A stretch of 64,000 bases of DNA from a virus (IMGVR_UViG_2639762987_000002); one strand, 5' to 3'; shown: positions 6,047 through 54,215, numbered from the stretch's first letter. Program-made: numbers and translations. Notes: generated by a model from the letters alone, not told the origin.

Positions 6047-9000
6047 ATGTGGTACAGGGAAGGTACTATCACATTTACACAGGGCAGCAATACTCTGGTT
6101 GGGGCAGGTACAGCCTGGAACGTAACAGCTAATGGTGTGTTGCCGGGGATGATCGTCATTGGCCCCGACAATAAGCTGTATGAGATCAAGCGCGTAACCA
6201 GTGATACGAACATTGTTCTCTCAGAACCTTATACCGGCGAAACTCAGTCTGAAGTTCCGTGCCGAATCATTACGACCTATGAAGGCGACTTAACACAGTT
6301 TAGCGCGCGCTTTACAGCACTAATGTCGCGTATGTCGGCTGATTCCAAGTCCATGCGCAGTTGGTTGACTGCTCTGGATGAGGTGACAATCGAGCGTGAA
6401 GACGGTACAGAAGTGACCGTTAAGCCGCTAATGCAGATCGTCAACGAGCACAACGAAAACGTTGAGTGGTATAAAAATAACACTGACGCGATTGATGCTG
6501 CTGGCGACAAAGCTCGTGAGGCGGCGGCCAGTGCTGCCGCAGCAGCAAAAAGCGCCAATGCCGCTGGAGAAAAAGCCTCTCAAGCGTCTCAAAGTGCATC
6601 CGCTGCGGCATCCTCACAAAGTGCCGCAAGTGCGAGTGCAACTGCTGCGAAAAAATCTGAAACGAATGCTGCAGCGTCACAAAAATCTGCAGCCACTTCT
6701 GCATCCACCGCGACCACGAAGGCGTCAGAAGCTGCCACCTCAGCCCGGGATGCGGCGGCCTCAAAAGAGGCAGCAAAATCATCAGAAACGAGCGCAGCCT
6801 CGAGCGCCAGTAATGCCGCTTCCTCGGCAACGGCGGCTGGAAATTCCGCGAAGGCGGCAAAAACGTCCGAGACGAACGCCAGGTCTTCTGAAACGGCAGC
6901 GGGACAGAGCGCCTCGGCTGCGGCAGGCTCAAAAACAGCGGCTGCGTCGTCTGCCAGTGCCGCGTCAACAAGTGCCGGGCAGGCCTCAGCCAGTGCCACC
7001 GCCGCCGGAAAATCGGCAGAAAGTGCCGCATCGTCTGCTTCAACGGCCACAACGAAGGCTGGCGAAGCCACTGAACAGGCCAGCGCAGCAGCGAGGTCTG
7101 CTTCCGCAGCGAAGACATCCGAAACGAACGCGAAAGCGTCGGAAACCCGTGCAGAATCCTCAAAAACGGCAGCCGCATCGTCCGCCAGTTCGGCAGCGTC
7201 ATCGGCATCATCTGCGTCTGCTTCAAAAGATGAGGCGACCAGACAGGCGTCAGCAGCGAAGGGCAGCGCCACGACGGCATCCACGAAAGCAACAGAGGCG
7301 GCAGGCAGTGCGACGGCTGCATCTCAGAGCAAAACTGCTGCCGAATCTGCTGCGACTCGTGCAGAAGCTGCCGCTGATCGTGCTGAAGAGATTGCCGGTG
7401 CAGTTGCGATGGAAGACGCAAGCCTTACAACTAAAGGTGTTGTGAAACTTAGCAGTGCTGTCGATAGCACCAGTGAATCGCTGGCTGCAACGCCAAAGGC
7501 AGTTAAAACTGTTAAAGATAGTTCAGTTCAAAAAACTGGCGACACAATGGGAGGGCAGTTAAAAATCGGCACGATAAATGCTCTTCGAATATTCAACCAA
7601 GCCTTTGGCCTTATTTTTAGGCGTTCCGAAGATTATATTCATCTTATCCCGACTAATGAAGGGGAGGGAGAAAATGGAGACATCGGTTCATTAAGACCAT
7701 TCTCTATAAACTTAAGATCAGGGTTGGTGTCCATCGGTAATGGACTAAAAGTTGGTGGTAGTGTTACTGGTAATTTGACCGGAAACGCAGATACTGCGAC
7801 CAAGATCAAGACAGCACGTAAGATTGGGGGCGTGGCATTTGATGGATCGGCAGATATCAACTTGCCTGGAGTCAACGCTACCGGTAATCAAAACACTACA
7901 GGTAATGCTGCGACCGCCACGAAACTTCAGGCAGCCAGAACGATTAACGGTGTGTCATTTGATGGTAGTGCAAATATCACATTGACCCCTTCAAATATTG
8001 GGGCGTTGGCATTAACTGGAGGGACTCTTTCAGGTGGTTTAACTGCTGCTGGTGAGATTATTTCAAAGTCAGCAAATGGTCTGCGTATTGCCTATGGCAA
8101 CTATGGATTCTTTATCCGAAATGATGGCTCAAATACATATTTTATGTTGACAGATTCGGGTAACAGTCTTGGTACGTACAATAGCTTAAGGCCGTTTATA
8201 ATTAGTAACTCTACTGGCAATGTTACAATTGCAACTAAATTAAACGCGAGTAGTGGTATCACTGGATCTTTATCGGGTAATGCAAGCACAGCAACCAAAT
8301 TGCAGACAGCAAGAACCATCGGTGGTGTTAGCTTCGATGGCACTGCGAATATTAATTTGCCTGGTGTTAATGCTGCCGGTAATCAGAACACTACCGGTAA
8401 CGCGGCCACAGCGACCAAGTTGCAAACAGCTAGAACTATTAACGGGGTGTCGTTTAACGGCTCTGCGAATATTTCAATACCAACAATTACGTCCAGAGGG
8501 CGCGTTACTGCGCTCACCGGTACAACACAAGGTGCTGCGACTGGATTGCAGATGTACGAGGCATATAACAATGGCTACCCTTCGTCTTACGGGAATGTGC
8601 TTCATCTTAAGGGCGCAACGGCCGTTGGTGAAGGTGAGTTGTTCATAGGTTGGAGCGGTACAAGTGGTGCTCATGCACCTGTACATGTACGTTCGCGACG
8701 AGATACGGATACATCCAGTTGGTCTGAATGGGCGCAAGTTTATACGTCCAAAGACTCAATTCCAGGTGTCAATGCCACCGGTAATCAGAACACTACTGGC
8801 AACGCAGCCTCTGCAACGAAGTTGCAGACAGCCAGAACAATTGGAGGTGTGTCGTTTAATGGCACCGCCAATATTAACTTGCCGGGTGTTAATATAGCGG
8901 GTAATCAGAATACGACTGGTAACGCAGCTTCAGCCACGAAGTTACAAACGGCTCGTACTATCGGTGGTGTTAGTTTTAACGGCACAGCCAATATTAACTT

Positions 9001-9571
9001 ACCTGGTGTGAATACGACCGGTAATCAGAACACTACTGGTAATGCTGCAACCGCCACAAAATTGCAGACAGCAAGGAAAATTGCTGGTGTGGCGTTTGAT
9101 GGCTCTGCCGATATAACTTTGACTGCGGCTAACCTTAATGCTTATACGAAAACAGAGGTAACAAACCTTCTCAGTTCCTATGTGAAGAGTAGTTCTCTTC
9201 CAAGCATGACTGTGCGAACTTCCTCTGTTTCTGGTGGGGATATGGGCATGAGTTTGTCCACATTCATTAGCCACCTTAAATCAAATGGGGCATTTAGCAA
9301 AAGTTATTGGATTGGCTTTGGCGATGCTATGGGATTCAATGCTGGCAGTATCAACAATATAACGGGATTTGGTGCTGTAGAATTAGCAGAATCTATAATC
9401 GAAGTTTTTAATCTACCTAACGGTGATTATACAATTCGTTTAACAACGTCACATAAAGCTGACTACGGTGGAGTGACAAACGCAATCCTCGTTTATCACT
9501 ACCGTAGTAATAGAAGTCCGTCAGGTCAATGGCTGAAATTTGCCGGTACTGTTGGGGCAACAAGCAACTGA
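6047..9571 (+). CDS. Tail fibre protein (side-tail-fibre type)
   Basis: 1174 aa after RBS AAGGAG; long Ala/Ser-rich tract; repeated ~40-aa units with GNAATATKLQTARTIGGVSF typical of phage tail-fibre repeats; follows J-like gene. Confidence 0.75.
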   Translation: MWYREGTITFTQGSNTLVGAGTAWNVTANGVLPGMIVIGPDNKLYEIKRVTSDTNIVLSEPYTGETQSEVPCRIITTYEGDLTQFSARFTALMSRMSADSKSMRSWLTALDEVTIEREDGTEVTVKPLMQIVNEHNENVEWYKNNTDAIDAAGDKAREAAASAAAAAKSANAAGEKASQASQSASAAASSQSAASASATAAKKSETNAAASQKSAATSASTATTKASEAATSARDAAASKEAAKSSETSAASSASNAASSATAAGNSAKAAKTSETNARSSETAAGQSASAAAGSKTAAASSASAASTSAGQASASATAAGKSAESAASSASTATTKAGEATEQASAAARSASAAKTSETNAKASETRAESSKTAAASSASSAASSASSASASKDEATRQASAAKGSATTASTKATEAAGSATAASQSKTAAESAATRAEAAADRAEEIAGAVAMEDASLTTKGVVKLSSAVDSTSESLAATPKAVKTVKDSSVQKTGDTMGGQLKIGTINALRIFNQAFGLIFRRSEDYIHLIPTNEGEGENGDIGSLRPFSINLRSGLVSIGNGLKVGGSVTGNLTGNADTATKIKTARKIGGVAFDGSADINLPGVNATGNQNTTGNAATATKLQAARTINGVSFDGSANITLTPSNIGALALTGGTLSGGLTAAGEIISKSANGLRIAYGNYGFFIRNDGSNTYFMLTDSGNSLGTYNSLRPFIISNSTGNVTIATKLNASSGITGSLSGNASTATKLQTARTIGGVSFDGTANINLPGVNAAGNQNTTGNAATATKLQTARTINGVSFNGSANISIPTITSRGRVTALTGTTQGAATGLQMYEAYNNGYPSSYGNVLHLKGATAVGEGELFIGWSGTSGAHAPVHVRSRRDTDTSSWSEWAQVYTSKDSIPGVNATGNQNTTGNAASATKLQTARTIGGVSFNGTANINLPGVNIAGNQNTTGNAASATKLQTARTIGGVSFNGTANINLPGVNTTGNQNTTGNAATATKLQTARKIAGVAFDGSADITLTAANLNAYTKTEVTNLLSSYVKSSSLPSMTVRTSSVSGGDMGMSLSTFISHLKSNGAFSKSYWIGFGDAMGFNAGSINNITGFGAVELAESIIEVFNLPNGDYTIRLTTSHKADYGGVTNAILVYHYRSNRSPSGQWLKFAGTVGATSN
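6480..7390 (+). repeat. Low-complexity Ala/Ser/Thr-rich coding tract in tail fibre gene
   Basis: Protein region of ~300 aa dominated by A, S, T, K, E; generates spurious long ORFs in other frames and on the minus strand. Confidence 0.8.
7780..9125 (+). repeat. Tail-fibre 120-nt (40-aa) repeats
   Basis: Three in-phase consecutive copies at 8761-8880, 8881-9000, 9001-9120 plus diverged copies near 7861 and 8341 and partial copies. Confidence 0.8.
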
Positions 9572-12286: not shown

Positions 12287-12502
12287 TTGATGAGTGGTCT
12301 CAGTTTACCTTTTATCCTAAAGATGGCATCTTCACTCATATACACGCCTGTTCACTCAAGCTCATGTTGAATCATTTAGTAATTTGATGTAGATTTATTA
12401 GGCATCCACGTAAGTGGGCACATACAGGCTACGCATCCTCGTAGCCTTCAACCCCGAGAGGGGTGCCGCAATGACACTTGTGTTAACGGCTAAGGTGGAC
12501 AC

Positions 12503-12886
12503 ATGCTGAACGAGAAACGTTCTATACAAACTATTCGCGATTGCACGAGTATTATCGAGACTCATGTGCTGAATCAGCACAAGCTTGAAGTACGTAAGCT
12601 CAATAATGACGCTATTGAACCGGAAGACTCACGCTTCATCGTTACCTTCAAAGACGATGTTGAGCGCGCTGGTGCAAGCGTGAAGCCATTAGCTGAAGCA
12701 ATTTACCTGAATGGTCGTGTTCGTTTTGTAGTCAAGCCAGCTAAACAGTACCCTGAGCTGTCTCGTTTTATCGAGGCTTTTTCGGAGGTTATTGAACATT
12801 CTATTCGCCGCTTCTTACGCAATCATGGTAGCATTGTCAGCACGGTTAAGGCTGATGATTCTGCTACAAAATGGCTCCTACACTAG
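12503..12886 (+). CDS. Hypothetical protein
   Basis: 127 aa; overlaps next ORF by 16 nt, suggesting a two-gene operon. Confidence 0.45.
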   Translation: MLNEKRSIQTIRDCTSIIETHVLNQHKLEVRKLNNDAIEPEDSRFIVTFKDDVERAGASVKPLAEAIYLNGRVRFVVKPAKQYPELSRFIEAFSEVIEHSIRRFLRNHGSIVSTVKADDSATKWLLH

Positions 12887-13623
12887 ATAGCGCATATTCA
12901 AAAGATCTAAGCGAGTTTCCTCATAAAGGGGAGACTCGTGTTGTTCGTTTTGGCTTTCTTATCAATGAAGCCTCCCTCTATAAAATCTCAGAAATTGAAA
13001 TCATTGAACCAGAAGATGACATTTGCCTGTATGTCTCTATGGAACTTGTAGGTGCGCGCGACCAAGGCGACCTGAGCGAATTCATCTTAGATCGAGCGGA
13101 TGAAGATGCCCCTGAAGAAGAGATTATCAAAGAGGTGCTCCAGTCCGGGCTTCTGGACGAAAACAAAAATACGATCGCTGGTAGGATAGCTCTGCGTGAA
13201 TATAGTTTTGTTGAAGACGGTAATGAGATCGAATGTTACCAGGTAGCCGGTGTCGAAACTGTCAGAGAGCGTCGTCAGCGAGGATTGTGTCACCGTACCT
13301 ATCTCTTTCTTCTTCATTGGTATGAGCATTTAGTCTGCGACGATACACAAACCATTCCTGGTGCTAAGATCTGGGCAGGGCCTCTCATGCGAACCGGCGA
13401 TGTGCGTATATACAATGCCAAAACAGAAACGTTCGAGGATGTGTTAGGTGAGTACGGGATGGGGAAAGAAACCGGATTTTTGCCGTGGAACAGAGGATTG
13501 TTGCTTGATGCAGAGTTAAGCTCTTGGCTCCCAAACAAAGTGCAAGTTAACGTTCAGAAATTTATCGTACTTATCATCTCCCGCAAAACAAGAACTCCAG
13601 TAGGTTTATACCTAAAAGATTAA
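12871..13623 (+). CDS. Hypothetical protein
   Basis: 250 aa, acidic N-terminal half; followed by a terminator. Confidence 0.5.
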   Translation: MAPTLDSAYSKDLSEFPHKGETRVVRFGFLINEASLYKISEIEIIEPEDDICLYVSMELVGARDQGDLSEFILDRADEDAPEEEIIKEVLQSGLLDENKNTIAGRIALREYSFVEDGNEIECYQVAGVETVRERRQRGLCHRTYLFLLHWYEHLVCDDTQTIPGAKIWAGPLMRTGDVRIYNAKTETFEDVLGEYGMGKETGFLPWNRGLLLDAELSSWLPNKVQVNVQKFIVLIISRKTRTPVGLYLKD

Positions 13624-13628
13624 AAATC

Positions 13629-13651
13629 AGGCGACTTTGGTCGCCTTTTTT
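13629..13651 (+). terminator. Rho-independent terminator
   Basis: AGGCGAC-TTTG-GTCGCCT hairpin followed by TTTTT. Confidence 0.8.
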
Positions 13652-13751
13652 GTTAACAGCCATTGATTCTCGCCTAAAAATTCTAAGGCAGCACCTACCA
13701 TTTAACCTTTACACCACAGCCGTAGGCATTTAGGCTATATCACATATAAGA

Positions 13752-13764
13752 AAACAAGTTGTTT
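13752..13764. promoter_or_regulatory. Palindrome AAACAAgTTGTTT upstream of parA (operator-like)
   Basis: 13-bp palindrome AAACAA-N-TTGTTT; similar sites at 16682, 28267, 40681, 54203. Confidence 0.45.
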
Positions 13765-13799
13765 CAGACGATAATTATATACGCAAAGGGAACTCTCCA

Positions 13800-14468
13800 A
13801 TGACCAAGATCTTTGTGGTTGGCGGCACAAAGGGCGGGCCTGGCAAATCCACCGTTGCCCAGCAAATTGCCGTTTGCCTGAAAGTCAAAAAGAAGAAGAA
13901 GGTTTATATCACTGATATAGATATTCAGCGCACGACAACAAGCTGGTGTGAAGACCGTCGACAGAACGAAGACCTTGAGCTGATTCCTTTTGCATACGTT
14001 CAGGATGACATCATTAAGCACCTAAAATCGCTTCAGGGTAGAGCTGAGTTTGTAGTGGTAGATGCTGGTGGCTTCGACTCCGAAATTCAGCGACAAGCGA
14101 TGCTGATGGCTGACGTTATCATTATCCCGCTGCGTCCTAAGCGTCGTGATTTGAAATCTTTACGTGACATCGATCCTATTATCGACAATGTTCGCAATGT
14201 AAACGATAAAGTGAAGGTCCGCGCGGTCATGAACCAGTGCCCGGCTTTGCCATCACAAGTGTCTCGCATTCTGGCGGCTAAAGAGATTGTTGAGACGTTT
14301 GGCATCGAGTCTGCGCCAGTCAATCTATATAACCGCAACGTCTATGATGATGCGGAAGAGTCTGGTCGTTCTATCTTTGAAATGACCGGTAGCGAGCGCG
14401 ACAAAAAGGCGGAAGCCGAGTTTGAAGAATTTGTAGATTATCTGTTGAGTCTGGAGGAAGAAGAATAA
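13800..14468 (+). CDS. parA: ParA-family partition ATPase
   Basis: Deviant Walker A GGTKGGPGKST at N-terminus; 222 aa; followed by a small RHH-like gene. Confidence 0.75.
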   Translation: MTKIFVVGGTKGGPGKSTVAQQIAVCLKVKKKKKVYITDIDIQRTTTSWCEDRRQNEDLELIPFAYVQDDIIKHLKSLQGRAEFVVVDAGGFDSEIQRQAMLMADVIIIPLRPKRRDLKSLRDIDPIIDNVRNVNDKVKVRAVMNQCPALPSQVSRILAAKEIVETFGIESAPVNLYNRNVYDDAEESGRSIFEMTGSERDKKAEAEFEEFVDYLLSLEEEE

Positions 14469-14827
14469 TGTCCATGAAAATGGGTGACCTAGCAAAGCGC
14501 AAAGAGCCTGATGCACCGGCTAAGAACACAACTCCTTTGCGCCAACCAGTCAGACCACAGGGACGCCCGACTCGTGGCAAAGAGAAAATTAAAAGCCGCA
14601 CAATGTCACTGGAGGACGAATACTTCGAACTGCTGGAGATGATGAAGTTCATCCCTCGCTTCGAGAAGTTCACTCGTTCTGACGTGATTCGAGCAGCCAT
14701 TTTCCATCTGGCAGAGAAGTCACCGCAGGAAATCGAGGACATCGTGAAATTGAATGAGGCGATCACCGCTGCCGATGTCACGATGCGTACCGATGAAATT
14801 AAACGAGAGTTGATGAAGAAAGGTTAA
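14468..14827 (+). CDS. Putative centromere-binding protein (ParG/RHH-like)
   Basis: 119 aa; basic disordered N-terminus, C-terminal strand-helix-helix-like region; start overlaps parA stop. Confidence 0.4.
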   Translation: MSMKMGDLAKRKEPDAPAKNTTPLRQPVRPQGRPTRGKEKIKSRTMSLEDEYFELLEMMKFIPRFEKFTRSDVIRAAIFHLAEKSPQEIEDIVKLNEAITAADVTMRTDEIKRELMKKG

Positions 14828-14828
14828 A

Positions 14829-14865
14829 AGTTATGCATTGGCGCAATGTACGCGCCAATGCATAA
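14829..14865. other. Perfect 15-bp inverted repeat between convergent genes
   Basis: GTTATGCATTGGCGC-aatgtac-GCGCCAATGCATAAC; no T-run; terminator or protein-binding site. Confidence 0.5.
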
Positions 14866-14879
14866 CTACAGTGTCAGCT

Positions 14880-15647
14880 TTATGCCGCGCTAACACTATG
14901 TTCAGTCCTAACCACCCCAACCTTCACAAAAGGGCTACCGTAGCTTGGTGGCTTCTTGATTAATTTGCCTACATACAGTTTTCTAATATGCTCATCGGCT
15001 ATTCTGCCAACAAATTCATAACGTTTTGTGTCGGGGCCAAGAGCTATATCCCTTGTAAAGTACTGCTGAGAACCGGCTTTGACCCAGCATTCAATCTGAT
15101 AAACTTCCATTATCAGCCCACCATATGTAGCGTAGGCATATTTGAGATTCTCGTCTCTTGGAACCTTTGCCCATACGCCACGCGTAGCTTCATATAATGC
15201 CAGAGCGGACATTCCTGACTTGTAGGTGCTGTTTAGCAGGAAGGCAAGACCGGCGTGCTCAGGAGCAATTTCAGTTTCCTCTTGCAGCACTAAGTGATGG
15301 TAGGCGTCCAGTGATATTCTGCCCATCATGGAACCACTTCCTCGTACCTTATTCGTAAGCTCTCCGACCCCCATAAGGTCGATGCATGTCGCCTCAACAA
15401 GTTTGGCTGTGGTTTCATCCATACCATGACGAAGTATATCTATGCCTAATTTTTTATTAGCCAAAAGTTCTTTGATCCGCATGGATTTGGGAGAGTCATC
15501 GGGATACTTGATGTGATCGAGACAACGAGTCGATTTGCCTTTTCCTATGTAAAACGGTCTTTTCATCTTGTCTTCTGTATCATAGAGACAGTAAACATAG
15601 TATTTAGCCTTATCCAATGATCTCGCGTATACCGATAAATCGTCCAT
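14880..15647 (-). CDS. GIY-YIG family nuclease
   Basis: 255 aa on minus strand; N-terminal YYVYCLYD...PFYIGKGKSTR matches the GIY-YIG motif; C-terminal domain unassigned. Confidence 0.6.
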   Translation of the reverse strand: MDDLSVYARSLDKAKYYVYCLYDTEDKMKRPFYIGKGKSTRCLDHIKYPDDSPKSMRIKELLANKKLGIDILRHGMDETTAKLVEATCIDLMGVGELTNKVRGSGSMMGRISLDAYHHLVLQEETEIAPEHAGLAFLLNSTYKSGMSALALYEATRGVWAKVPRDENLKYAYATYGGLIMEVYQIECWVKAGSQQYFTRDIALGPDTKRYEFVGRIADEHIRKLYVGKLIKKPPSYGSPFVKVGVVRTEHSVSAA

Positions 15648-15765
15648 TATTGCATCTCTTTGCTACTGACTAATGCGTTCTATTTTACACATAAGTTTTT
15701 AATCAATTTAACAGGCTCAAAGTGTAGAGCTTCTGGGCGTCTAAGACGACAAGTTATGCCTGTTT

Positions 15766-15822
15766 CTGTATATATAAATAATAAGTAACTTATTAAATAT
15801 ATACGGAAGCAGGTCTTTTAAA
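15766..15822. promoter_or_regulatory. AT-rich element with TATAAATA core flanked by imperfect inverted repeats (copy A)
   Basis: CTGTATATATAAATAA...TATACGGAAG(C)AGG; second copy at 61957-62015; lies in divergent intergenic region. Confidence 0.4.
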
Positions 15823-15929
15823 AGACACCACCAGAACAACTCCCTTCCGTTTCCACTTCCAAAAACTGCCACCAGTCGCTATCATCCGCTCATTGTGATA
15901 AGTAAGTAACTACCTACCAGGTGAGCCAC

Positions 15930-16670: not shown

Positions 16671-16681
16671 CTAATACTAGA

Positions 16682-16694
16682 AAACAATTTGTTT
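16682..16694. promoter_or_regulatory. Palindrome AAACAAtTTGTTT upstream of helicase gene
   Basis: Perfect half-sites AAACAA/TTGTTT 20 nt upstream of the ATG. Confidence 0.45.
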
Positions 16695-23615: not shown

Positions 23616-23690
23616 GATGGTGTAGCTCAGCGGTAGAGCAGTTGGCTGTTAACCAACTGGTCGGTGGTTCGAATCCACCCACCATCGCCA
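23616..23690 (+). tRNA. tRNA-Asn (anticodon GTT)
   Basis: Manual fold: acceptor GATGGTG/CACCATC, anticodon loop CTGTTAA, T-loop TTCGAAT, 3' CCA. Confidence 0.75.
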
Positions 23691-23695
23691 ATTTA

Positions 23696-23782
23696 GGGGA
23701 GTTAGTCCGTAGAGGTAGCGGTGTAGACTGTAAATCTACTGTCATGGCGACTCGGGTGGTTCGACTCCATCACTCCCCACCA
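23696..23782 (+). tRNA. tRNA-Tyr (anticodon GTA), long variable arm
   Basis: 87 nt; acceptor GGGGAGT/ACTCCCC, anticodon loop CTGTAAA, T-loop TTCGACT, 3' CCA. Confidence 0.65.
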
Positions 23783-23786
23783 AATT

Positions 23787-23862
23787 GCCGGTTTAGCTCA
23801 GTTGGTAGAGCGCCTGCCTTGTAAGCAGGATGTCAGCGGTTCGAGTCCGTTAACCGGCACCA
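23787..23862 (+). tRNA. tRNA-Thr (anticodon TGT)
   Basis: 76 nt; acceptor GCCGGTT/AACCGGC, D-loop AGTTGGTAGA, anticodon loop CTTGTAA, T-loop TTCGAGT, 3' CCA. Confidence 0.8.
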
Positions 23863-26251: not shown

Positions 26252-27355
26252 ATGAAAAATAGCTTTGACAGAGCACGCGCTGCGGAGAACACCTCAAAAG
26301 AGGCGATAGAGTATCTCGAAAGAGCATCTCAAATGCAGGCCGTTATGATCTCGCAGGTTAGCAATGACATGAGATTCTCGGACGCATTCATGTTATTCAC
26401 TCGCTTATCTCTGCTGATAACCAGACGTCGGCCAGAGATCGCTGTTCATTGTATTTTGATACATGTTTTGCCGCACATTGCCGATGTAAAAGTAAGTGAC
26501 ATTAATAGGTTCATGGTGAACCAACTGGTCAACCCACTAATACTGGATGGCAAAATTGTTATGGGCCGCCGCGTTTTCTCTCTGATGAAGCAGTTCCTTA
26601 GCTGGTGCGCCTTCCAGGGGATGATAGACGTGTCACCGTTAAACGATATGTCACTAAACAAAGTTGCCGGTGGCGCAAAGCCCACACCTCGCGAGCGGAA
26701 GCTGACCGACGCAGAGGTATGGGTGTTCTGGAATATATGGGACTACTTCAATGTGTGCGCTGGTACAAAATGGGCGGCCAGGCTGTGTCTTGTATCCGCA
26801 AGACGACCTGACGAAGTACTGCGGGCTAAAAAAAGTGAGTTCAATCTTAAGCGTGGGGTTTGGAATCAAGGCAAGAGGAACAAATCTGCCCGTGAGCATT
26901 CGCTGCCTTTAAGCACATTAATGCGCACATGTATTGAAGAGTTGTTCGAATACGGTAAAGGCAGCCAGTGGCTCGTGCCTTCGAATAAAAAAATCGGGAA
27001 AGACCTTCCTATGTCTAAAGTGGCAATAGCCCAGGCATTACGTCGTATCCTGGAACGACCAGAACTGATGGAGCTTGAGCCATTTACACCCCGAGACTTG
27101 CGCCGTACTGCGCGTAGTTACTTCCCAGCATTAGGCATAAGCCAGGAGGTATCACGTAAAATCATGAACCACAGTCTTGAGGGGATAGATCGAGTCTACG
27201 ACCGGCACGATTATATGGACGAGATGCGAGACGCCTTAGAAAGTTTCTCGACGTACATCGCATCAATCGTAGAGCAACCGGATTTAGACGAAATTGACCA
27301 CAAATTTAAGGGAGATCGTCTATCAACAGAGCTTATTCGTGTAAATTTTTCATAG
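26252..27355 (+). CDS. Tyrosine site-specific recombinase (integrase or resolution recombinase)
   Basis: 367 aa; C-terminal region with ARRPDEVLR, LRRTARSY, NHSLEG...YDRHDY resembling tyrosine recombinase boxes. Confidence 0.6.
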   Translation: MKNSFDRARAAENTSKEAIEYLERASQMQAVMISQVSNDMRFSDAFMLFTRLSLLITRRRPEIAVHCILIHVLPHIADVKVSDINRFMVNQLVNPLILDGKIVMGRRVFSLMKQFLSWCAFQGMIDVSPLNDMSLNKVAGGAKPTPRERKLTDAEVWVFWNIWDYFNVCAGTKWAARLCLVSARRPDEVLRAKKSEFNLKRGVWNQGKRNKSAREHSLPLSTLMRTCIEELFEYGKGSQWLVPSNKKIGKDLPMSKVAIAQALRRILERPELMELEPFTPRDLRRTARSYFPALGISQEVSRKIMNHSLEGIDRVYDRHDYMDEMRDALESFSTYIASIVEQPDLDEIDHKFKGDRLSTELIRVNFS

Positions 27356-27736
27356 AGACTTTATGGCCTCAACAACCTTTTGTGATGCGCCTTTCTCTTT
27401 ACCGAATCGCTCGTTATATGCAGCAAGAACCTGTTTTTCGTCCTCGTTAAGAGGAGCAGTGCCTTCTTTGTATAAAAATGCTGCGAGTTCGGGTTGGCGT
27501 TCTTCCAGCACCATCATCATAAGACGACTTGGCTCAATACCCAGTGCCAGCGCCAGCGGACGAACCTTATCGATAGGCAAAGGAATTTTGCCGCTTTTAA
27601 TTAAAGAAAGGTTGTTGGCGTTTTTATACCCAATTGTTTTGGCTATCTGGGCCTGGCTCATAGGTGAGGATTCAATCAACCCTGCGATAAAAGCAGCGTA
27701 GCGACTTTCTATAAATTCAATCTTGTTATCAGACAT
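27350..27736 (-). CDS. XRE-family helix-turn-helix transcriptional regulator
   Basis: 128 aa on minus strand; HTH segment SQAQIAKTIGYKNANNLSLIKSG; divergent from downstream operon. Confidence 0.6.
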   Translation of the reverse strand: MSDNKIEFIESRYAAFIAGLIESSPMSQAQIAKTIGYKNANNLSLIKSGKIPLPIDKVRPLALALGIEPSRLMMMVLEERQPELAAFLYKEGTAPLNEDEKQVLAAYNERFGKEKGASQKVVEAIKSL

Positions 27737-27767
27737 GGTTACAACCTTTGCGCGTTCAATTCTCTCT

Positions 27768-27781
27768 GGTAAGTGCTTACC
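27768..27781. promoter_or_regulatory. Operator-like palindrome GGTAAGTGCTTACC in divergent promoter region of the XRE regulator
   Basis: Perfect palindrome; same core as the site at 51759-51779. Confidence 0.45.
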
Positions 27782-27987
27782 GATATTACATCAAAGGTTA
27801 GGGTTGTAAAGCTATTATCATTTTTTTCGATAGGCACTTAAAAGACCGGTTAAAGGCCATTGCACGGAGAAAAATTAGCCCAAAATAGGTAAGAAAATTA
27901 ACTTGCATATGATATGAATGTATTCAGTATTGATACAAATTTTAGTAGTATTCCTTACCATAGTATAAGTTAGAATGGATTGATTGA

Positions 27988-28200: not shown

Positions 28201-28298
28201 CCCCTCTTCTCCCTGCGCGAATGGCTTAGTTCCCTGTTCGCGCAGTGCTACATTAAACACACTAGTAAATAATTTGTTTTCATAACAAAGGATTAGCC

Positions 28299-30502: not shown

Positions 30503-31738
30503 ATGACTACTACTGCACTGCAAAATGAAAAAAATCCTTCTGATTACCTTGTTTGCAAGTGGTGCGGAAAATCATTTCACTATTTTAAGTCCCATGTAGC
30601 CAATGGTAATTGCGAGGGCATTCCTGAGTCAGTAAAAGATGCCGATCCTGACACCGTACTGAAAATGTACACAACACAGTTTCCAGATGAGCCAACGCTA
30701 TCGAAAAAGGCACTTGATGCAATTCAAGCTAAACGTGCCGAGCAAAAAAGCGAAATGGCCAAATCATCTGGCGTGACCAGTAGCCCAGGCTACACAGGCA
30801 CAGTTGAGTACAAGACAGATCTGGTCGCAGCTCACGAACTGCTAAATGTAACGGTGAAAGAACTCGGAACAAAACGTGGGACGCCGCTCATGGTTAGCGT
30901 CAACGTCAATACGCCGTTTCCAGAGTTCGTTCCAGAAGTGAAGAAGGGATACGTATATGGCGACTTCGAACTGATCAAAGACATTTTCATGATGCTTGAA
31001 CTTGGCATACCTGGCTATTTGTGGGGTCATGCAGGAACAGGCAAATCTTCATTGCCTACACAACTATGTGCTTTGCTCAATCGTCCGTTAATCCGTGCCC
31101 AACATACAGCATCAATGGAAGAGGCTCATGTTACGGGACAAATTCTGGCGCGTGATGGCTCTACGTATTTCGAGCCTGGCTTGCTTGCGCTCGCAATGAA
31201 GCATGGCTGGGTTTACCTCGCGGATGAATACGACTTTGCGTTTCCACAGATTCTTGGCGTGTATCAGCCAGTGCTGGAAGGTGAAGCGTTGGTCATCAAA
31301 GAGGCGACTCCAGAATGGCGTCGCATTACTCCGCATGAACGGTTTGCTTTCATTGGCACTGGCAACACGAACGGATCTGGTGATGAAACCGGCTTGTACC
31401 AGGGTACAAACATCCAGAACGCCGCGAACTTTTCGCGTTTTGGCATCGTTTCGAATGTGAAATACATGAGCAAAGAGGCAGAGATCAACATGTTGATAAA
31501 TGCCGGTATCGTGGATGAATACGCAGAAAAGATGGTTAAGTTTGCCGGTATCGTTCGCGATGGATACGAAGAACACCTTATCAGTCAGCCAATTGGCCCT
31601 CGTGAACTTTTGTTGTCGGCCAAGATTGGAATGATGCGAGGCGACTTTGTGACAGGTATTGAGCGTTCTTTCATTAACAAACTCCCTTCAGCTTCTGCAC
31701 AAGCGGCTCGTGAAGTTGTTCAAAAAATATTTGGTTAA
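30503..31738 (+). CDS. AAA+ ATPase (MoxR/CobS-like)
   Basis: 411 aa; Walker A GHAGTGKSS, Walker B VYLADEYD; N-terminal Cys cluster CKWCG...NGNCEG. Confidence 0.65.
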   Translation: MTTTALQNEKNPSDYLVCKWCGKSFHYFKSHVANGNCEGIPESVKDADPDTVLKMYTTQFPDEPTLSKKALDAIQAKRAEQKSEMAKSSGVTSSPGYTGTVEYKTDLVAAHELLNVTVKELGTKRGTPLMVSVNVNTPFPEFVPEVKKGYVYGDFELIKDIFMMLELGIPGYLWGHAGTGKSSLPTQLCALLNRPLIRAQHTASMEEAHVTGQILARDGSTYFEPGLLALAMKHGWVYLADEYDFAFPQILGVYQPVLEGEALVIKEATPEWRRITPHERFAFIGTGNTNGSGDETGLYQGTNIQNAANFSRFGIVSNVKYMSKEAEINMLINAGIVDEYAEKMVKFAGIVRDGYEEHLISQPIGPRELLLSAKIGMMRGDFVTGIERSFINKLPSASAQAAREVVQKIFG

Positions 31739-31740
31739 TC

Positions 31741-31944
31741 GTGCGTAAAGGATGTTTCGGCTCTCTTATCGCTGCTTCTGAAACTGGTAAGGCTTGTCTG
31801 GTGTGTCCAGACAAGCCCGATTGTCACCAATCAGCAAAAGAAGTTGCGATTTCGATGCATGGGAAGTTCGTAGGCTTCCCCAATGACAAAATCAAAAAAA
31901 CCAGAAAGGTAAAAACACATGAAGGCACTGATGGTTCGAACTGA
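31741..31944 (+). CDS. Hypothetical small Cys-containing protein
   Basis: 67 aa from GTG; overlaps dnaE start; weak. Confidence 0.25.
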   Translation: MRKGCFGSLIAASETGKACLVCPDKPDCHQSAKEVAISMHGKFVGFPNDKIKKTRKVKTHEGTDGSN

Positions 31945-34900
31945 CTTCTCACTTGGGGAGTCGGCTCTAAAAGCAGAAAACGCGGTGAAGATTGCCAGAG
32001 AAGCTGGCTACACCGCTGTAATTTCAGCAGATAGCATGAATATTGCGAGCGTTATTCCACTACAACGTGCCGCTGGTGACGACATGGCGGTTATTTGTGG
32101 TGTGAAACTAAACATTGTTGATGATCCCACATACGAGCACCGGGCTAAACTTGCTAAAGAATCTATGAGATGTATGGAATCATTAGAGCGGGGACGTAAC
32201 TACTCGTTTACCGCTCTAATTAAAAATGAGCAAGGATATCGCGACATCTGCGAACTAATGACGGTGGCCAACACACGAGAACAGTTCTACTTTGTACCGC
32301 GTCTCTCGCTCGAACAGTTGGTTTCTACATATGCCAAAGGCAACATCATCCTGCTCACTTCCGACATCGGTAGCGTGTTCCAACGCAACGATTTTGCAAA
32401 AATCATAAGCTCACTGATTACAGCGGGCGGGAAAGACAACTTCTATAGTGTGGTTTATCCGCACCCTACCCCATTCTACGACCAGATTAACGTCCGAGCG
32501 ATGAAAGTCGCCAGCGCACTGAAAATAGAGCCAGTAGCGTTCTATCCCGCTTATTACGAATCGATCGACGATGCAGACATTAAAGACATTGCGCACATGG
32601 TTACGAACAACATAAAAATCGACCAGCCGCATCGTCTGCGTATCCCCCACCAGCGAGATAACGCCATCAATGGTCGTCGCCATCTCCTTGAGGCGCTTAA
32701 AGCCTTCTCCGTTCGCATGGATGTGCCGGTAACAGCTGCAATGGCCTCAACAACGCAGGACTCCATTATCGATGCCTGCACATGGCGCTGGCATGAATTG
32801 CCACCAGCACTGCCCAAGATGGCAGACGACGAACCTGCAACGCTGATGAAACTGGCTGTTGCAGGGCTGCGTAAACGTCTTACCACAAAAGAGTTTGGAT
32901 ACACACCACCTGCTTCTGAGAACAGGGTTTATGTTGAGCGGCTAAAGTACGAAATGGACACGCTGACTCGCCTGGGATTCTGTGGTTACTTCCTGATGGT
33001 ACGCGATCTGATGAATCACAGCCGTGAAACTGGCATTCCTGTCGGGCCTGGTCGTGGTTCCTCTGCCGGTTCTCTGGTGGCGTGGTGCATAGGCATAACC
33101 AACGTCGACCCAATCCGTCACGGTCTTCTGTTTGAGCGTTTCATCAACCCTGAGCGTCTCGACTTGCCGGATGCGGACTTGGACTTCAGCCAGGCACGTC
33201 GCCATGAGGTGATCGAGTATCTGAATGAACGCTACGGCGAAGATTACGTTGCAGGCATTCCGAACTTCACCTACCTGGGCGCAGCCTCTGCACTACGTGA
33301 CACCGCTCGTATTTATGGTGTGGAGTCCGCAGATATGGCGGTATCAAAAGAACTGAAGAACGTCGAGGATGATAGCCTTCCATTGGAAGAGCTGCGCGAA
33401 CAACTGGCAAGTCTCGACAAATACGCAACAAAATATCCTGATGCATTCAATGCAGCCTGCAAGTTACAAAGCCTTATGCGTGGCTTTGGTAGACATGCGG
33501 CAGGGATGATCGTAGCAGGTGTTCCTCTGACAGAACGTACACCGGTTGAACGCCGTGGTGACGCGCGTTGTATCGCATTTGACAAGCGTTACTGCGAGGC
33601 TATGGGCCTAATTAAGCTGGACGTACTTGGTCTGGCAACTCTCGATTTGCTCGATAGTGCAAAACGCTACATAAAAGAGAACACAGGTGAAGATATCAAT
33701 CTTGATGCCATTTCTCTTGAAGATCGCAAGGTGCTGGATGGTTTTGCTGCTGGGTACACTCAAGGTGTTTTCCAGCTTGAATCAGGCCCAATGCGCAAGC
33801 TGCTTAAAGATTTAGGTGGTGGAATTGAGCCAATGAGCTTTAAAACGGTTGTTGCTACGACTGCGCTCTTCCGGCCGGGGCCAATTCAGTCAGGCATGTT
33901 GGATGACTATGTTTCTGTAGCCAAAGGCTTTATGACGCCGGAATCATTACACCCCGTTCTTGATGAACTTACCGCAGAAACAAATGGCGTGATTCTCTAT
34001 CAGGAACAGACGATGAACGCGACTCGATTGCTTGCTGGCTTCACAATGGCTGAAGCTGACGGCGTTCGTAAAGCGATCGGCAAAAAAGACATGGAAAAAA
34101 TGAAGAGCATGGGCGAGAAGTTCATCGTTCAGGCTCAAGCTGGCTGGATAGACGTTGAGCTGGAAGATGGCACTACACAGCGCATTCACCGTGCGGAACA
34201 TTTTAAATGCGAAGACGGAACTCTGAAAACTGTCGAAGAGGCACTTGAGTACGGCGCAAAACTACCTATAAACGCAGTACGCGTTACAGCGTCACATCCA
34301 GGGCTATCAGAGATGAAAGCGAAGGAGATCTGGACCGCATTCGAAAAGAATGGTGCCTACCAGTTCAACAAATCACACTCTGTTGCTTACTCCTTAATCA
34401 GTTATCAATCTATGTGGTTGAAAACTCATTATCCCGCGGAGTTCTTCGCTGCTGCTCTCACTATTCTTGGCGAAGATAAACACCAGGGGCTGGTTAAAGA
34501 TGCGCTGACCTATGGTATTCGCGTATTGCCACCAGACGTTAACGTGTCATCTAACCGAATCGAGATCCGCACGCTTGAAGATGGCAGCCAGGTGCTGTAT
34601 GCGCCCTTCTCTGCTGTGAAAGGGTGTTCTGAGAATGGCTGCCAAGCCATCATGAGAGCGCGAGAAAAAGTTGGCGGCAAATTCGAGTCACTGGCGCAAT
34701 TCGAAGAAGCTGTCGAGAAACGTGCCTGTAATAGTCGAGTGCGCGAATCACTGCAAAAAGTAGGTGCGTTTGCATCCATCGAGCCAGGTAGTCTGCCAGC
34801 AACTGATCCAGAGCGTCTCCGCGACCAGGCTGAATTGATGGGAAACCTTGTCATAGACGCAGTTAAAGCCTCACGTCCGTTTGAGATGAACCCCAAACGT

Positions 34901-40656: not shown

Positions 40657-40680
40657 TTCTCGTTATTATCACACACAAGA

Positions 40681-40693
40681 AAACAATTTGTTA
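40681..40693. promoter_or_regulatory. Palindrome AAACAAtTTGTTa upstream of gene 40710
   Basis: Member of the AAACAA-N-TTGTTT family. Confidence 0.4.
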
Positions 40694-44313: not shown

Positions 44314-44360
44314 ATGCAAACTGACTGCGGCTCGTTCCGCAGTCATATTTCATAGTCGTC

Positions 44361-44893
44361 ACCGCTGACAGCATACACAATCAACTACCGCTGATAGCAT
44401 ATCGAGAGTCTATCTCACCGCTCACAGCATACTTTACTCGATTTTTTACCGCTGACAGCATACTTAAGAAATTGCATGAATAATGTGTCCCGGTATGGGT
44501 ATAACCAGAACAAAATTACCGCTGGCAGCATACGAATGTCTGACATATACCATTAATTACCGCTGATAGCATATCCAAACAAAAATTCCTCAATAAAACA
44601 CCGCTGACAGCATACGTTCTATCAGGGAGTAGCAGGCAATAAATGCCTTTCACTACAAGCAATCAGCGCAATAGCAATAGAATGTTAGTGAGCGCAAACC
44701 TATATGGAATGCACTCTTCGAGGTTAGTAACCACTGGGGAGGTATGACAGAGCATTGAGTGGTGATAGATGATTTACCGCTCACAGCATACGTTCATCTC
44801 ACTATACCGCTGGTAGCATATCTTTAACCGTTCACAGCATACTTTTCAGAAAAATAGCCGCTGATAGCATACATTTCACCGCTGACAGCATAT
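44361..44893 (+). repeat. Iteron array downstream of rep gene (12 direct repeats, consensus ACCGCTGACAGCATAC)
   Basis: Copies begin at 44361, 44387, 44417, 44448, 44518, 44559, 44600, 44776, 44806, 44827, 44857, 44878; all same orientation, irregular spacing 21-70 bp. Confidence 0.85.
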
Positions 44894-45987: not shown

Positions 45988-46007
45988 GTGGACACCTTTG
46001 TCATTCA

Positions 46008-46109
46008 ACCGCTGACAGCATACTTGATTTGCCGCTGACAGAATACCAAAAACAGTTGGCAGCATACGGTGAACCGCTGACAGACTATCAATTACCGCTG
46101 ACAGCATAC
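46008..46109 (+). repeat. Origin-proximal iterons upstream of rep gene (5 copies, about 21-bp periodicity)
   Basis: Copies at 46008, 46031, 46052 (degenerate), 46073, 46094. Confidence 0.8.
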
Positions 46110-54140: not shown

Positions 54141-54202
54141 CATATGGTGGGGGATATCCCCACCTTCTCTTTGATTTGTAAGCCTTGTTTAAACACATAA
54201 GA

Positions 54203-54215
54203 TAACAACTTGTTT
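54203..54215. promoter_or_regulatory. Palindrome tAACAAcTTGTTT upstream of nrdB
   Basis: Member of the AAACAA-N-TTGTTT family. Confidence 0.4.

What the first reader, a model, noticed from the sequence alone, without database searches (positions are those of the whole stretch)
13752..14865. ParA plus RHH-like partition cassette about 30 kb from the iteron replicon
A Walker-type ParA (GGTKGGPGKST) is followed by an overlapping 119-aa gene with a basic tail and RHH-like C-terminus, the layout of type Ib partition systems. No obvious centromere repeat array was found; the only nearby repeats are the AAACAAgTTGTTT palindrome upstream and a perfect 15-bp inverted repeat downstream (14829-14865).
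Basis: partly seen in the sequence, partly recalled or inferred. Interest (0 to 1): 0.55.

Follow-up and report, generated by a model that had tools for sequence, protein, structure and literature searches.

The report
Phage-plasmid partition operon, centromere unidentified
This is the plasmid-segregation operon of an SSU5-like phage-plasmid, a small ParA ATPase plus an unnamed DNA-binding adaptor protein; it is a fairly ordinary member of a known class, and neither of the two palindromes beside it is its centromere.

Summary
The window is an SSU5-like phage-plasmid. A 222-aa ParF-like Walker ATPase (13800-14468) overlaps by one base a 119-aa gene (14468-14827). The pair is syntenic in every relative examined, from Escherichia to Xenorhabdus.

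The small protein belongs to a tiny, unannotated family (PHROG 5111). Its layout is:
- a conserved N-terminal M-G-D-L-A-K motif;
- a disordered basic linker;
- a probable ribbon-helix-helix core (about residues 42-85, central rather than C-terminal);
- two further helices.

RHH support is weak and indirect: one relative's core segment just passes the Pfam RHH_1 threshold, but the window protein does not.

Neither flanking repeat is a centromere:
- The upstream palindrome is one copy of a promoter-proximal box, yAyAAGAAAACAAnTTGTTT. There are 5 copies in the window (0.11 expected) and about 20 genome-wide. The box persists in Yersinia pMT1, where neither protein was detected.
- The downstream inverted repeat is a hairpin in a hypervariable flank. 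Among 90 loci there are 19 different downstream neighbours, many shown with their own hairpin.

No repeat array exists. The best centromere/operator candidate is the near-invariant block 13719-13766.

Verdict: a type Ib-like partition cassette, a new member of a known kind, with its centromere unresolved.

The parts
13707..13766 (+). Highly conserved non-coding promoter/operator block of the par operon. It is the best candidate for the autoregulatory operator and possibly the centromere.
   Evidence: Among 73 unique sequences at 80% identity or more, CTTTACAC (13707-13714) and nearly all of 13719-13766 are invariant. For comparison, third codon positions vary in 88% of columns (mean pairwise difference per site, pi, 0.27) and the 5'UTR in 66%. 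All sequence similarity to relatives with different upstream genes starts at about 13692.
13708..13736 (+). Inferred sigma-70-type promoter: TTTACA (13708-13713), 17-bp spacer, TAGGCT (13731-13736).
   Evidence: Both hexamers are invariant in 75 unique sequences down to 66% identity. Distant relatives have TTGACC at the aligned -35 position. The simple consensus scan did not report it, because the -10 matches only 3 of 6. This is an inference.
13723..13735 (+). TAGGC-N3-TAGGC direct repeat (8-bp period) overlapping the inferred -10. Candidate par-specific binding boxes.
   Evidence: The exact pattern occurs once in the window. TAGGC/GCCTA is under-represented in the window, and its densest cluster in the genome is here. 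L107/L012 relatives also carry a TAGGC pair at 8-bp spacing, shifted by 8 bp. The evidence is weak: by pattern count it is not above chance.
13745..13764 (+). Copy of the genome-wide box yAyAAGAAAACAAnTTGTTT.
   Evidence: There are 5 copies in the window against 0.11 expected, all on the + strand and 14-40 nt upstream of start codons. pi = 0.0014 across relatives. The sequence has no significant RNA fold (z = +0.34).
13800..14468 (+). parA: 222-aa ParF-like deviant Walker A ATPase.
14468..14827 (+). 119-aa adaptor gene (probable centromere-binding protein). Parts: N-terminal MGDLAK motif, basic disordered linker, RHH-like core at about residues 42-85, two C-terminal helices.
   Evidence: It lies directly downstream of parA in all lineages.
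14829..14867 (.). Perfect 16-bp-arm hairpin. Probably a terminator of the convergent GIY-YIG gene, and possibly of the par operon. It is not part of the conserved cassette.
   Evidence: Similarity to Cyrano, SSU5 and Klebsiella relatives ends at 14825. On the - strand the stem is followed by CUUUUAACCUUUCUUC.
14880..15647 (-). Variable neighbour: 255-aa protein with a LEM-3-like GIY-YIG nuclease domain.
   Evidence: Pfam PF22945, E 5.5e-7; PHROG 5356. It is absent at this position in SSU5, Cyrano and pJN2-26.
16675..16694 (+). Second copy of the box, upstream of the DnaB-like helicase gene.
   Evidence: It is conserved at the orthologous promoter in distant relatives while the flanks diverge.
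28260..28279 (+). Third copy of the box, upstream of the 702-aa CobT-like gene.
   Evidence: The orthologous site in pMT1 is an exact 16/16 match.
40674..40693 (+). Fourth copy of the box, upstream of a 274-aa ORF.
54196..54215 (+). Fifth copy of the box, upstream of nrdB.

Best explanation
This is the plasmid-partition operon of an SSU5-like phage-plasmid, and it works like a type Ib ParA system.

Shown:
- A small ParF-like Walker ATPase (13800-14468).
- A translationally coupled 119-aa gene (14468-14827).
- The pair is inherited as one module, about 13692-14825, between two hypervariable gene islands.

Inferred:
- The small protein is the centromere-binding adaptor.
- Its conserved N-terminal G-D-L-A-K peptide contacts and stimulates ParA.
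- Its basic linker and RHH core bind DNA as a dimer.
- Its C-terminal helices add oligomerisation.
- It autoregulates the operon by binding within the near-invariant 60-bp promoter block (13707-13766). That block is also the most likely centromere.

The upstream palindrome is one copy of a genome-wide promoter-proximal operator box, probably bound by a separate phage regulator, so par expression appears wired into the phage's global transcription programme. The downstream inverted repeat is a terminator-type hairpin that belongs to a variable neighbouring gene.
For: ParA identity.

Operon coupling and strict synteny in Escherichia, Salmonella, Klebsiella, Kluyvera, Buttiauxella, Morganella, Photorhabdus and Xenorhabdus elements.

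Adaptor architecture:
- L8 is invariant and K10 nearly invariant in the N-terminal motif, down to 26% identity.
- The N-terminal part has low model confidence (pLDDT below 50 for residues 1-25, about 50-60 to residue 45); helices lie at 48-61, 70-82, 86-97 and 101-118.
- The core of relative P0027 hits Pfam RHH_1 at 20.9 bits (cut-off 20.5, E 3.4e-4), and the P0035 core at E 0.005.
- The window protein hits the RHH-type aCcr1 NCBIfam at E 2e-4.
- hhalign places CopG helix-loop-helix opposite residues 54-80.

Conservation: the promoter block is far more conserved than synonymous sites. At the helicase promoter only the -35 and the box are conserved, so the extra constraint at 13719-13744 is par-specific.

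Need for partition: the relative Cyrano has about 5.5 copies per cell (PMC9928086, S1 Fig legend), low enough to need active partition. pMT1 returned no tblastn hit to either protein and carries a P1-type ParA/ParB pair.

Box is not par-specific.

Inverted repeat lies in a variable flank.
Against: - No centromere repeat array of the kind that defines known type Ib systems was found. The TAGGC pair is not statistically compelling.
- The window protein itself does not reach any RHH model threshold.
- No solved-structure match was found by sequence or by fold.
- The AlphaFold2 models are monomers of modest confidence (pLDDT 63-67) with no beta-strand.
- hhalign finds no relation to ParG or omega.
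- No functional data on this cassette were found in the searchable literature.
- pMT1 lacks the whole lysis-to-helicase region, so its loss of the cassette is not a clean one-for-one replacement.
Confidence: 0.7

Rival explanations
1. Dispersed centromere and global regulator. The RHH adaptor binds the AAACAAnTTGTTT boxes themselves. The roughly 20 boxes would then act together as a scattered centromere (as the dispersed sop sites do in N15). They would also act as operators through which the partition protein silences phage early genes (as KorB does in RK2, or omega in pSM19035).
For: - The par promoter carries the same box as about 20 other promoters. For a protein that autoregulates its own operon this is the simplest explanation.
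- A 13-bp palindrome with half-site centres 7 bp apart suits paired RHH dimers (my knowledge of omega and CopG).
- No other repeated site is found near the operon.
- AAAACAA half-sites recur upstream of parA even in lineages without the full palindrome.
- N15 precedent: Ravin et al. 2008, as listed in the reference list of PMC11652158; what that paper shows is from my knowledge.
Against: - pMT1 gives no tblastn hit to ParA or the small protein, yet keeps exact or near-exact boxes at promoters whose flanks have diverged. One is an exact match upstream of its CobT-like gene (72-74% aa identity to the window's).
- Morganella, Photorhabdus and Xenorhabdus relatives, and L018, lack the palindrome upstream of parA. 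Their RHH strand (I-K/R-S-R-T-x-S) is nevertheless unchanged.
- Once the palindrome itself is excluded, half-sites upstream of parA do not appear enriched over what AT-rich intergenic DNA would give (my estimate from the counts; no formal test).
Confidence: 0.1
2. Not a partition system. The ParA-like ATPase and its RHH partner would serve another purpose in the phage life cycle, such as transcriptional control, DNA positioning during lytic growth, or exclusion/defence. Plasmid segregation would then rely on copy number, on multimer resolution, or on the ParB/Srx-domain genes near the terminase.
For: - No centromere array was found.
- The cassette sits among phage lysis and replication genes, 30 kb from the replicon.
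- It shares an operator box with early or replication genes.
- It is flanked by islands that hold defence-like genes in relatives.
- Two ParB N-terminal-domain genes exist elsewhere in the near-identical plasmid.
Against: - The ParA is closest to bona fide plasmid partition ATPases.
- The partner carries a conserved N-terminal motif of the kind that activates ParA-type ATPases (the comparison is from my knowledge).
- It is the only ParA-type gene I noticed in the annotation of pAVS0968-B. The elements are low-copy plasmids of 100-115 kb.
- ParB/Srx genes beside terminase genes are common in phages that are not plasmids (my knowledge).
Confidence: 0.12
3. The small gene is a RelE/ParE-type toxin, as annotated in phage Cyrano, so the pair would be an addiction module rather than a partition system.
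For: The annotation 'RelE/ParE putative toxin' on CYRAN_29.
Against: - No Pfam, NCBIfam or PHROG hit to any toxin family.
- The sequence has an RHH-type strand-helix-helix pattern and a disordered basic N-terminus.
- Its partner is a ParA ATPase, not an antitoxin.
Confidence: 0.02

Closest known systems
ParF-ParG-parH of Salmonella plasmid TP228 (type Ib)
   Same: The ParA is a small Walker ATPase whose best solved relative is ParF (E 1.2e-10, aligned nearly end to end). The partner gene is small and immediately downstream. It has a flexible N-terminal tail and a probable RHH domain. The promoter-proximal region is the likely site of autoregulation.
   Different: The partner shows no detectable sequence relation to ParG (hhalign probability 0.1%). 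At 119 aa it is longer than ParG (76 aa), with two extra C-terminal helices. No parH-like array of tetramer boxes is present.
Delta-omega of pSM19035, and par2 (ParA-ParB-parC1/parC2) of pB171 (type Ib)
   Same: A small ParA plus a small dimeric adaptor that also represses transcription. Omega binds 7-bp units in direct or inverted orientation, and the palindrome here could be read the same way.
   Different: No relation to omega by hhalign. There are no arrays of 7-10 heptads or of 17-18 hexamers. Only one palindrome and one TAGGC pair are found.
Pfam RHH_1 (CopG/Arc/MetJ-type ribbon-helix-helix)
   Same: The I-K-S-R-T-M-S-L strand, helix, loop, then T-R-S-D-V-I-R-A-A-I helix pattern. One family member passes the RHH_1 gathering score on its core segment.
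   Different: The window protein is below threshold. The loop between the helices is longer than usual (about 9 residues). The fold is not confirmed by structure search.
Dispersed operator networks of phage-plasmids: P1 C1 operators and the N15 scattered sop centromeres (comparison for the box, not the cassette)
   Same: A short conserved site is repeated about 20 times at promoters across the genome, including in front of the replicative helicase gene. In P1 the equivalent gene, ban, is under C1 control (my knowledge).
   Different: The binding protein here is unknown. The site is a 13-bp palindrome joined to a -10-like yAyAAG, whereas the P1 operator is an asymmetric 17-mer. A partition operon sitting inside such a network is not a feature of P1 (my knowledge).
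P1/P7-type ParA-ParB-parS of Yersinia pMT1 (type Ia), a degenerate relative of SSU5
   Same: It would serve the same role in a related backbone.
   Different: That system has a 401-aa ParA and a 323-aa ParB-family protein. pMT1 has no homologue of the cassette studied here.

Membership tests
Type Ib plasmid partition system | Small (about 190-310 aa) deviant Walker A ParA with no N-terminal DNA-binding domain | tested here: met
   222 aa with KGGPGKST at residues 11-18. It aligns to ParF (206 aa) over 9-199 and to NF041546 over 9-213 of a 203-position profile.
Type Ib plasmid partition system | Adaptor gene immediately downstream in the same operon | tested here: met
   1-nt overlap (TAATG) with an SD 10 nt upstream. 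The genes are adjacent or overlapping in all lineages fetched.
Type Ib plasmid partition system | Adaptor is a small dimeric RHH DNA-binding protein | tested here: inconclusive
Type Ib plasmid partition system | Flexible N-terminal tail of the adaptor stimulates ParA ATPase | not testable with these tools
   The sequence is consistent: a conserved M-G-[DG]-L-[AG]-K motif with L8 invariant and K10 at 90% or more, and low model confidence over the N-terminal part (pLDDT below 50 for residues 1-25).
Type Ib plasmid partition system | Centromere made of an array of short direct or inverted repeats next to the operon | tested here: not met
   No array by the repeat finder, TRF or k-mer analysis in this or related lineages. 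Only one TAGGC-N3-TAGGC pair and one shared palindrome are present.
Type Ib plasmid partition system | Stabilises a low-copy replicon | not testable with these tools
   Needs a plasmid-loss assay.
ParF/ParG/parH (TP228) family | Adaptor homologous to ParG | tested here: not met
   hhalign probability 0.1%.
Type Ia ParABS (P1, F, pMT1) | Large ParA with an N-terminal HTH, and ParB with a ParB/Srx N-terminal domain and an HTH | tested here: not met
   The ParA is 222 aa with no extra domain, and the small protein has no ParB-domain hit.
RelE/ParE toxin (annotation in phage Cyrano) | Match to the RelE/ParE fold or family | tested here: not met
   No hit in Pfam, NCBIfam or PHROGs.
Centromere role for the upstream palindrome | Site specific to, and co-inherited with, the par cassette | tested here: not met
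   5 copies in the window and about 20 in the genome, at unrelated promoters. It is retained in pMT1 without the cassette and absent upstream of parA in L018 and L109-L112.
Centromere role for the downstream inverted repeat | Conserved together with the cassette | tested here: not met
   It is found only in the 31 of 90 loci that share the same downstream neighbour as the window (the GIY-YIG gene here and in PhiR41_1). Only the window's copy is perfect. Eighteen other downstream variants exist.

The most novel reading that the evidence does not exclude
The partition adaptor has no private centromere. It would bind the roughly 20 AAACAAnTTGTTT boxes scattered across the phage-plasmid, so that the same protein-DNA complexes both segregate the plasmid and hold phage early and replication promoters in check. 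This would be an RHH-type counterpart of the N15 dispersed centromeres and of KorB-style global regulation.
Probability: 0.1. Interest if true: 0.7.

Novelty: new member of a known kind. Interest (0 to 1): 0.35.

Why it matters
SSU5-like phage-plasmids are widespread in clinical Enterobacteriaceae: this cassette matched 731 plasmid records. They also carry resistance genes. I found no functional study of their maintenance functions in the searchable literature, and they are annotated only as 'ParA' plus 'hypothetical protein'.

Assigning the 119-aa protein (PHROG 5111, function unknown) as the probable centromere-binding adaptor gives a concrete target. So does defining a 60-bp candidate site. 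Both can be used in stability, incompatibility and curing experiments.

Two side findings may be more useful than the cassette itself. One is the genome-wide operator box. The other is the two hypervariable islands flanking the operon. Both bear on how these elements control lysogeny and where they acquire accessory or defence genes.

Tried and rejected
- Sequence searches of the small protein and of two family profiles against PDB chains gave only chance-level hits.
- hhalign against ParG and omega showed no relation, and CopG scored only E 0.02 in the expected register.
- An 'ACC every 8 bp' repeat idea for 13693-13715 was dropped, because those columns are variable among close relatives.
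- I looked for a motif shared by all parA upstream regions across 12 lineages. Only AT-rich words and the AAACAA half-site emerged.
- A search for further copies of the conserved block GCCGTAGGCATTTAGGCTATATCAC found none.
- The palindrome as an RNA hairpin was rejected (z = +0.34).
- I looked for SSU5-like phages that lack the cassette, to test whether the box depends on it. The phage collection holds none. pMT1 from the plasmid collection served instead.
- Gilcrease & Casjens 2018 (PMC5800970) could not be read.
- The IMG/VR scan returned only close relatives, at 91% identity or more.

Full report
**What the window is**

The region 13600-14900 is 100% identical to E. coli plasmid pAVS0968-B. 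It matches 731 plasmid records and 11 phage records, including Salmonella phage SSU5 (86%), Escherichia phages Cyrano and PhiR41_1 (97-98%), and Klebsiella phage-plasmids (about 80%). The gene order is tail fibre, lysis genes, a variable stretch, parA plus a small gene, another variable stretch, a 249-aa gene, DnaB-like helicase, primase. The window is therefore an SSU5-like phage-plasmid.

**Checking the observation**

- ParA is 13800-14468 (222 aa) and begins MTKIFVVGGTKGGPGKST.
- It hits Pfam MipZ/AAA_31/CbiA/ParA, NCBIfam 'ParA family partition ATPase' (E 1.9e-33, full length, below the equivalog cut-off) and PHROG 164.
- Its closest solved relative is TP228 ParF (E 1.2e-10).
- The second ORF, 14468-14827 (119 aa), overlaps the parA stop by one base (TAATG) and has GGAGG 10 nt upstream.
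- The palindrome AAACAA-G-TTGTTT is at 13752-13764.
- The downstream inverted repeat has perfect 16-bp arms (14829-14844 / 14852-14867) and folds at about -28.7 kcal/mol, z about -6.
- No repeat array was found.

**The small protein**

It has no Pfam hit, and its PHROG (5111) has no assigned function. The family is very small: 25 clusters in 5.8 billion proteins, and 18 representatives in 1.84 billion.

Wherever DNA context was recovered, the gene lies directly after a parA in the same synteny. This holds for relatives only 26-40% identical, found in Morganella, Photorhabdus, Xenorhabdus and metagenomes.

The alignment shows four parts:
- An N-terminal motif, M-G-[DG]-L-[AG]-K, with L8 invariant and K10 nearly so. 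From my knowledge it resembles the LG(K/R)GL-type peptides with which ParB proteins activate ParA ATPases.
- A variable low-complexity linker followed by a conserved basic stretch, P-V-R-P-Q-G-R-P-T-R-G-K.
- The segment I-K-S-R-T-M-S-L-E-D-E-Y...F-T-R-S-D-V-I-R-A-A-I, which has the strand-helix-loop-helix pattern of ribbon-helix-helix proteins.
- A helical C-terminal extension.

AlphaFold2 monomer models (pLDDT 63 and 67) give low confidence for the N-terminal part (pLDDT below 50 for residues 1-25, about 50-60 to residue 45). They place helices at 48-61, 70-82, 86-97 and 101-118.

Direct support for an RHH fold is weak but consistent:
- The core of relative P0027 passes the Pfam RHH_1 gathering score (20.9 vs 20.5 bits, E 3.4e-4), and P0035 scores E 0.005.
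- The window protein hits the RHH-type aCcr1 family at E 2e-4.
- hhalign puts CopG's helix-loop-helix opposite residues 54-80.

Structure and PDB-sequence searches were uninformative. There is no detectable relation to ParG or omega. The RHH-like part is central, not C-terminal.

**The upstream palindrome is not par-specific**

The extended motif CAnAAGAAAACAAnTTGTTT occurs five times in the window against 0.11 expected. All copies are on the + strand, 14-40 nt upstream of start codons. The genes they precede are parA (13745), the DnaB-like helicase (16675), a CobT-like gene (28260), a 274-aa ORF (40674) and nrdB (54196). Three of the copies follow hairpins, which suggests they mark the starts of transcription units.

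The rest of pAVS0968-B holds about 14 more copies, again pointing into downstream genes. At the helicase promoter the box and a -35 (TTGATC) are conserved across distant relatives while the sequence between them diverges. The palindrome has no significant RNA fold.

I read the box as a -10-like yAyAAG joined to an operator that overlaps the transcription start. This is an inference.

Two results separate the box from the par adaptor:
- Yersinia pMT1 is a degenerate relative with a P1-type ParA/ParB pair and gives no tblastn hit to this ParA or to the small protein. It still keeps five to six exact or near-exact boxes at promoters whose flanks have diverged, including one upstream of its CobT-like gene.
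- Relatives from Morganellaceae, and L018, lack the palindrome upstream of parA, yet the RHH strand is unchanged.

The XRE-type regulator at 27350-27736 has different palindromes in its own upstream region, such as GGTAAGTGCTTACC. The box-binding protein remains unknown.

**The downstream inverted repeat is not part of the module**

Similarity to Cyrano, SSU5 and the Klebsiella elements stops at 14825, the end of the small gene. Among 90 loci carrying the cassette, the 400 bp downstream fall into 19 unrelated groups and the 400 bp upstream into 15. In many of the downstream groups a different GC-rich hairpin directly follows the stop codon.

The window's hairpin is found only in the 31 loci that share the same downstream neighbour as the window, the GIY-YIG gene (14880-15647, -) here and in PhiR41_1. 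Only the window's copy is perfect. On the - strand it is followed by a U-rich tail, so it is most simply that gene's terminator, and perhaps a bidirectional one.

**Where the centromere might be**

Among 73 unique sequences at 80% identity or more, the fraction of variable columns (with mean pairwise difference per site, pi) is:

| Region | Variable columns | pi |
|---|---|---|
| Third codon positions (parA) | 88% | 0.27 |
| 5'UTR, 13765-13799 | 66% | 0.13 |
| 13692-13744 | 40% | 0.084 |
| Box, 13745-13764 | 5% | 0.0014 |

The motif CTTTACAC (13707-13714) and nearly all of 13719-13766 are invariant. This fits a promoter, TTTACA-17-TAGGCT (13708-13736), whose spacer and -10 are additionally constrained. 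The constrained part includes TAGGC-N3-TAGGC (13723-13735). That pattern is unique in the window, and it lies in the only local cluster of an otherwise under-represented pentamer.

The helicase promoter shows no comparable spacer constraint, so the constraint is par-specific. I take this block as the best candidate for the adaptor's operator and possibly the centromere. It is not an array, the statistics for the TAGGC pair alone are weak, and no motif common to all lineages emerged.

**Verdict**

The cassette works like a type Ib partition system, and I file it there as a new member with an uncharacterised adaptor family. One defining feature, a repeat-array centromere, was tested and not met. 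The RHH fold is only weakly supported.

The more novel alternative is that the adaptor uses the dispersed boxes as the N15 sop system or KorB would. It is not excluded, but pMT1 and the Morganellaceae relatives make it unlikely (about 0.1).

No functional study of this cassette was found in the searchable literature. Reviews and surveys only list a ParA for SSU5-type elements.

Noticed in passing
window 13745-13764, 16675-16694, 28260-28279, 40674-40693, 54196-54215; about 14 more in L017 (pAVS0968-B); 5-6 in pMT1 (L113/L114): A genome-wide promoter-proximal box, yAyAAGAAAACAAnTTGTTT, always pointing into the downstream gene. It precedes the helicase, CobT-like, nrdB and terminase-operon genes and many small ORFs. 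It looks like a dispersed operator network in the manner of P1 C1, but the binding protein is unknown. No mention was found in the papers searched.
   Followed up: partly
window about 12400-13690 and 14828-15900; loci L001-L112: The par cassette is bracketed by two hypervariable islands. Among 90 loci there are at least 15 different upstream and at least 19 different downstream neighbours. Contents in relatives include a KacT toxin-antitoxin pair (Cyrano), ApeA/HEPN with an S24 peptidase and Abi_2 (L018), DUF2971 (SSU5), and here a GIY-YIG protein. They look like accessory or defence-gene hotspots.
   Followed up: partly
window 15760-15812: A 53-nt nested AT-rich palindrome (CCTGTTTCTGTATATAT...ATATACGGAAGCAGG; -26.9 kcal/mol, z -6.2) followed by TCTTTT, upstream of the 249-aa gene. 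It is conserved in the Escherichia, Salmonella and L012 lineages. In loci with no inserted gene it lies about 40 bp after the small par gene. It is probably the ancestral par terminator, but an origin or other cis site is not excluded.
   Followed up: partly
window 27350-27736 (-) and 27737-27987: A 128-aa XRE-type regulator lies next to the integrase, with a divergent 70-aa ORF. The intergenic region carries GGTAAGTGCTTACC (27768-27781) and further GGTAAG/CTTACC copies. These are likely its own operators, and they differ from the genome-wide box.
   Followed up: no
window 44355-44892 and 46002-46108: Fifteen iterons (ACCGCTGACAGCATA core) lie on both sides of the 404-aa rep gene. This confirms the replicon mentioned in the finding's title.
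   Followed up: yes
window 23616-23859: Three adjacent tRNA genes (Rfam RF00005) lie in a stretch with no listed genes in the plasmid record.
   Followed up: no
L017 41068-42416 (pAVS0968-B record 86067-87415, outside the window); pMT1 30707-32073: Two adjacent ParB/Srx N-terminal-domain genes sit next to the terminase operon and are conserved in pMT1. They are probably what a surveillance preprint uses as the SSU5 'parB' marker. They are unlikely partners of this ParA.
   Followed up: no
window 8765-9119: Three copies of a 120-bp tandem repeat (73% matches), in the stretch between the IS66 element and the tail-fibre gene by the pAVS0968-B annotation.
   Followed up: no
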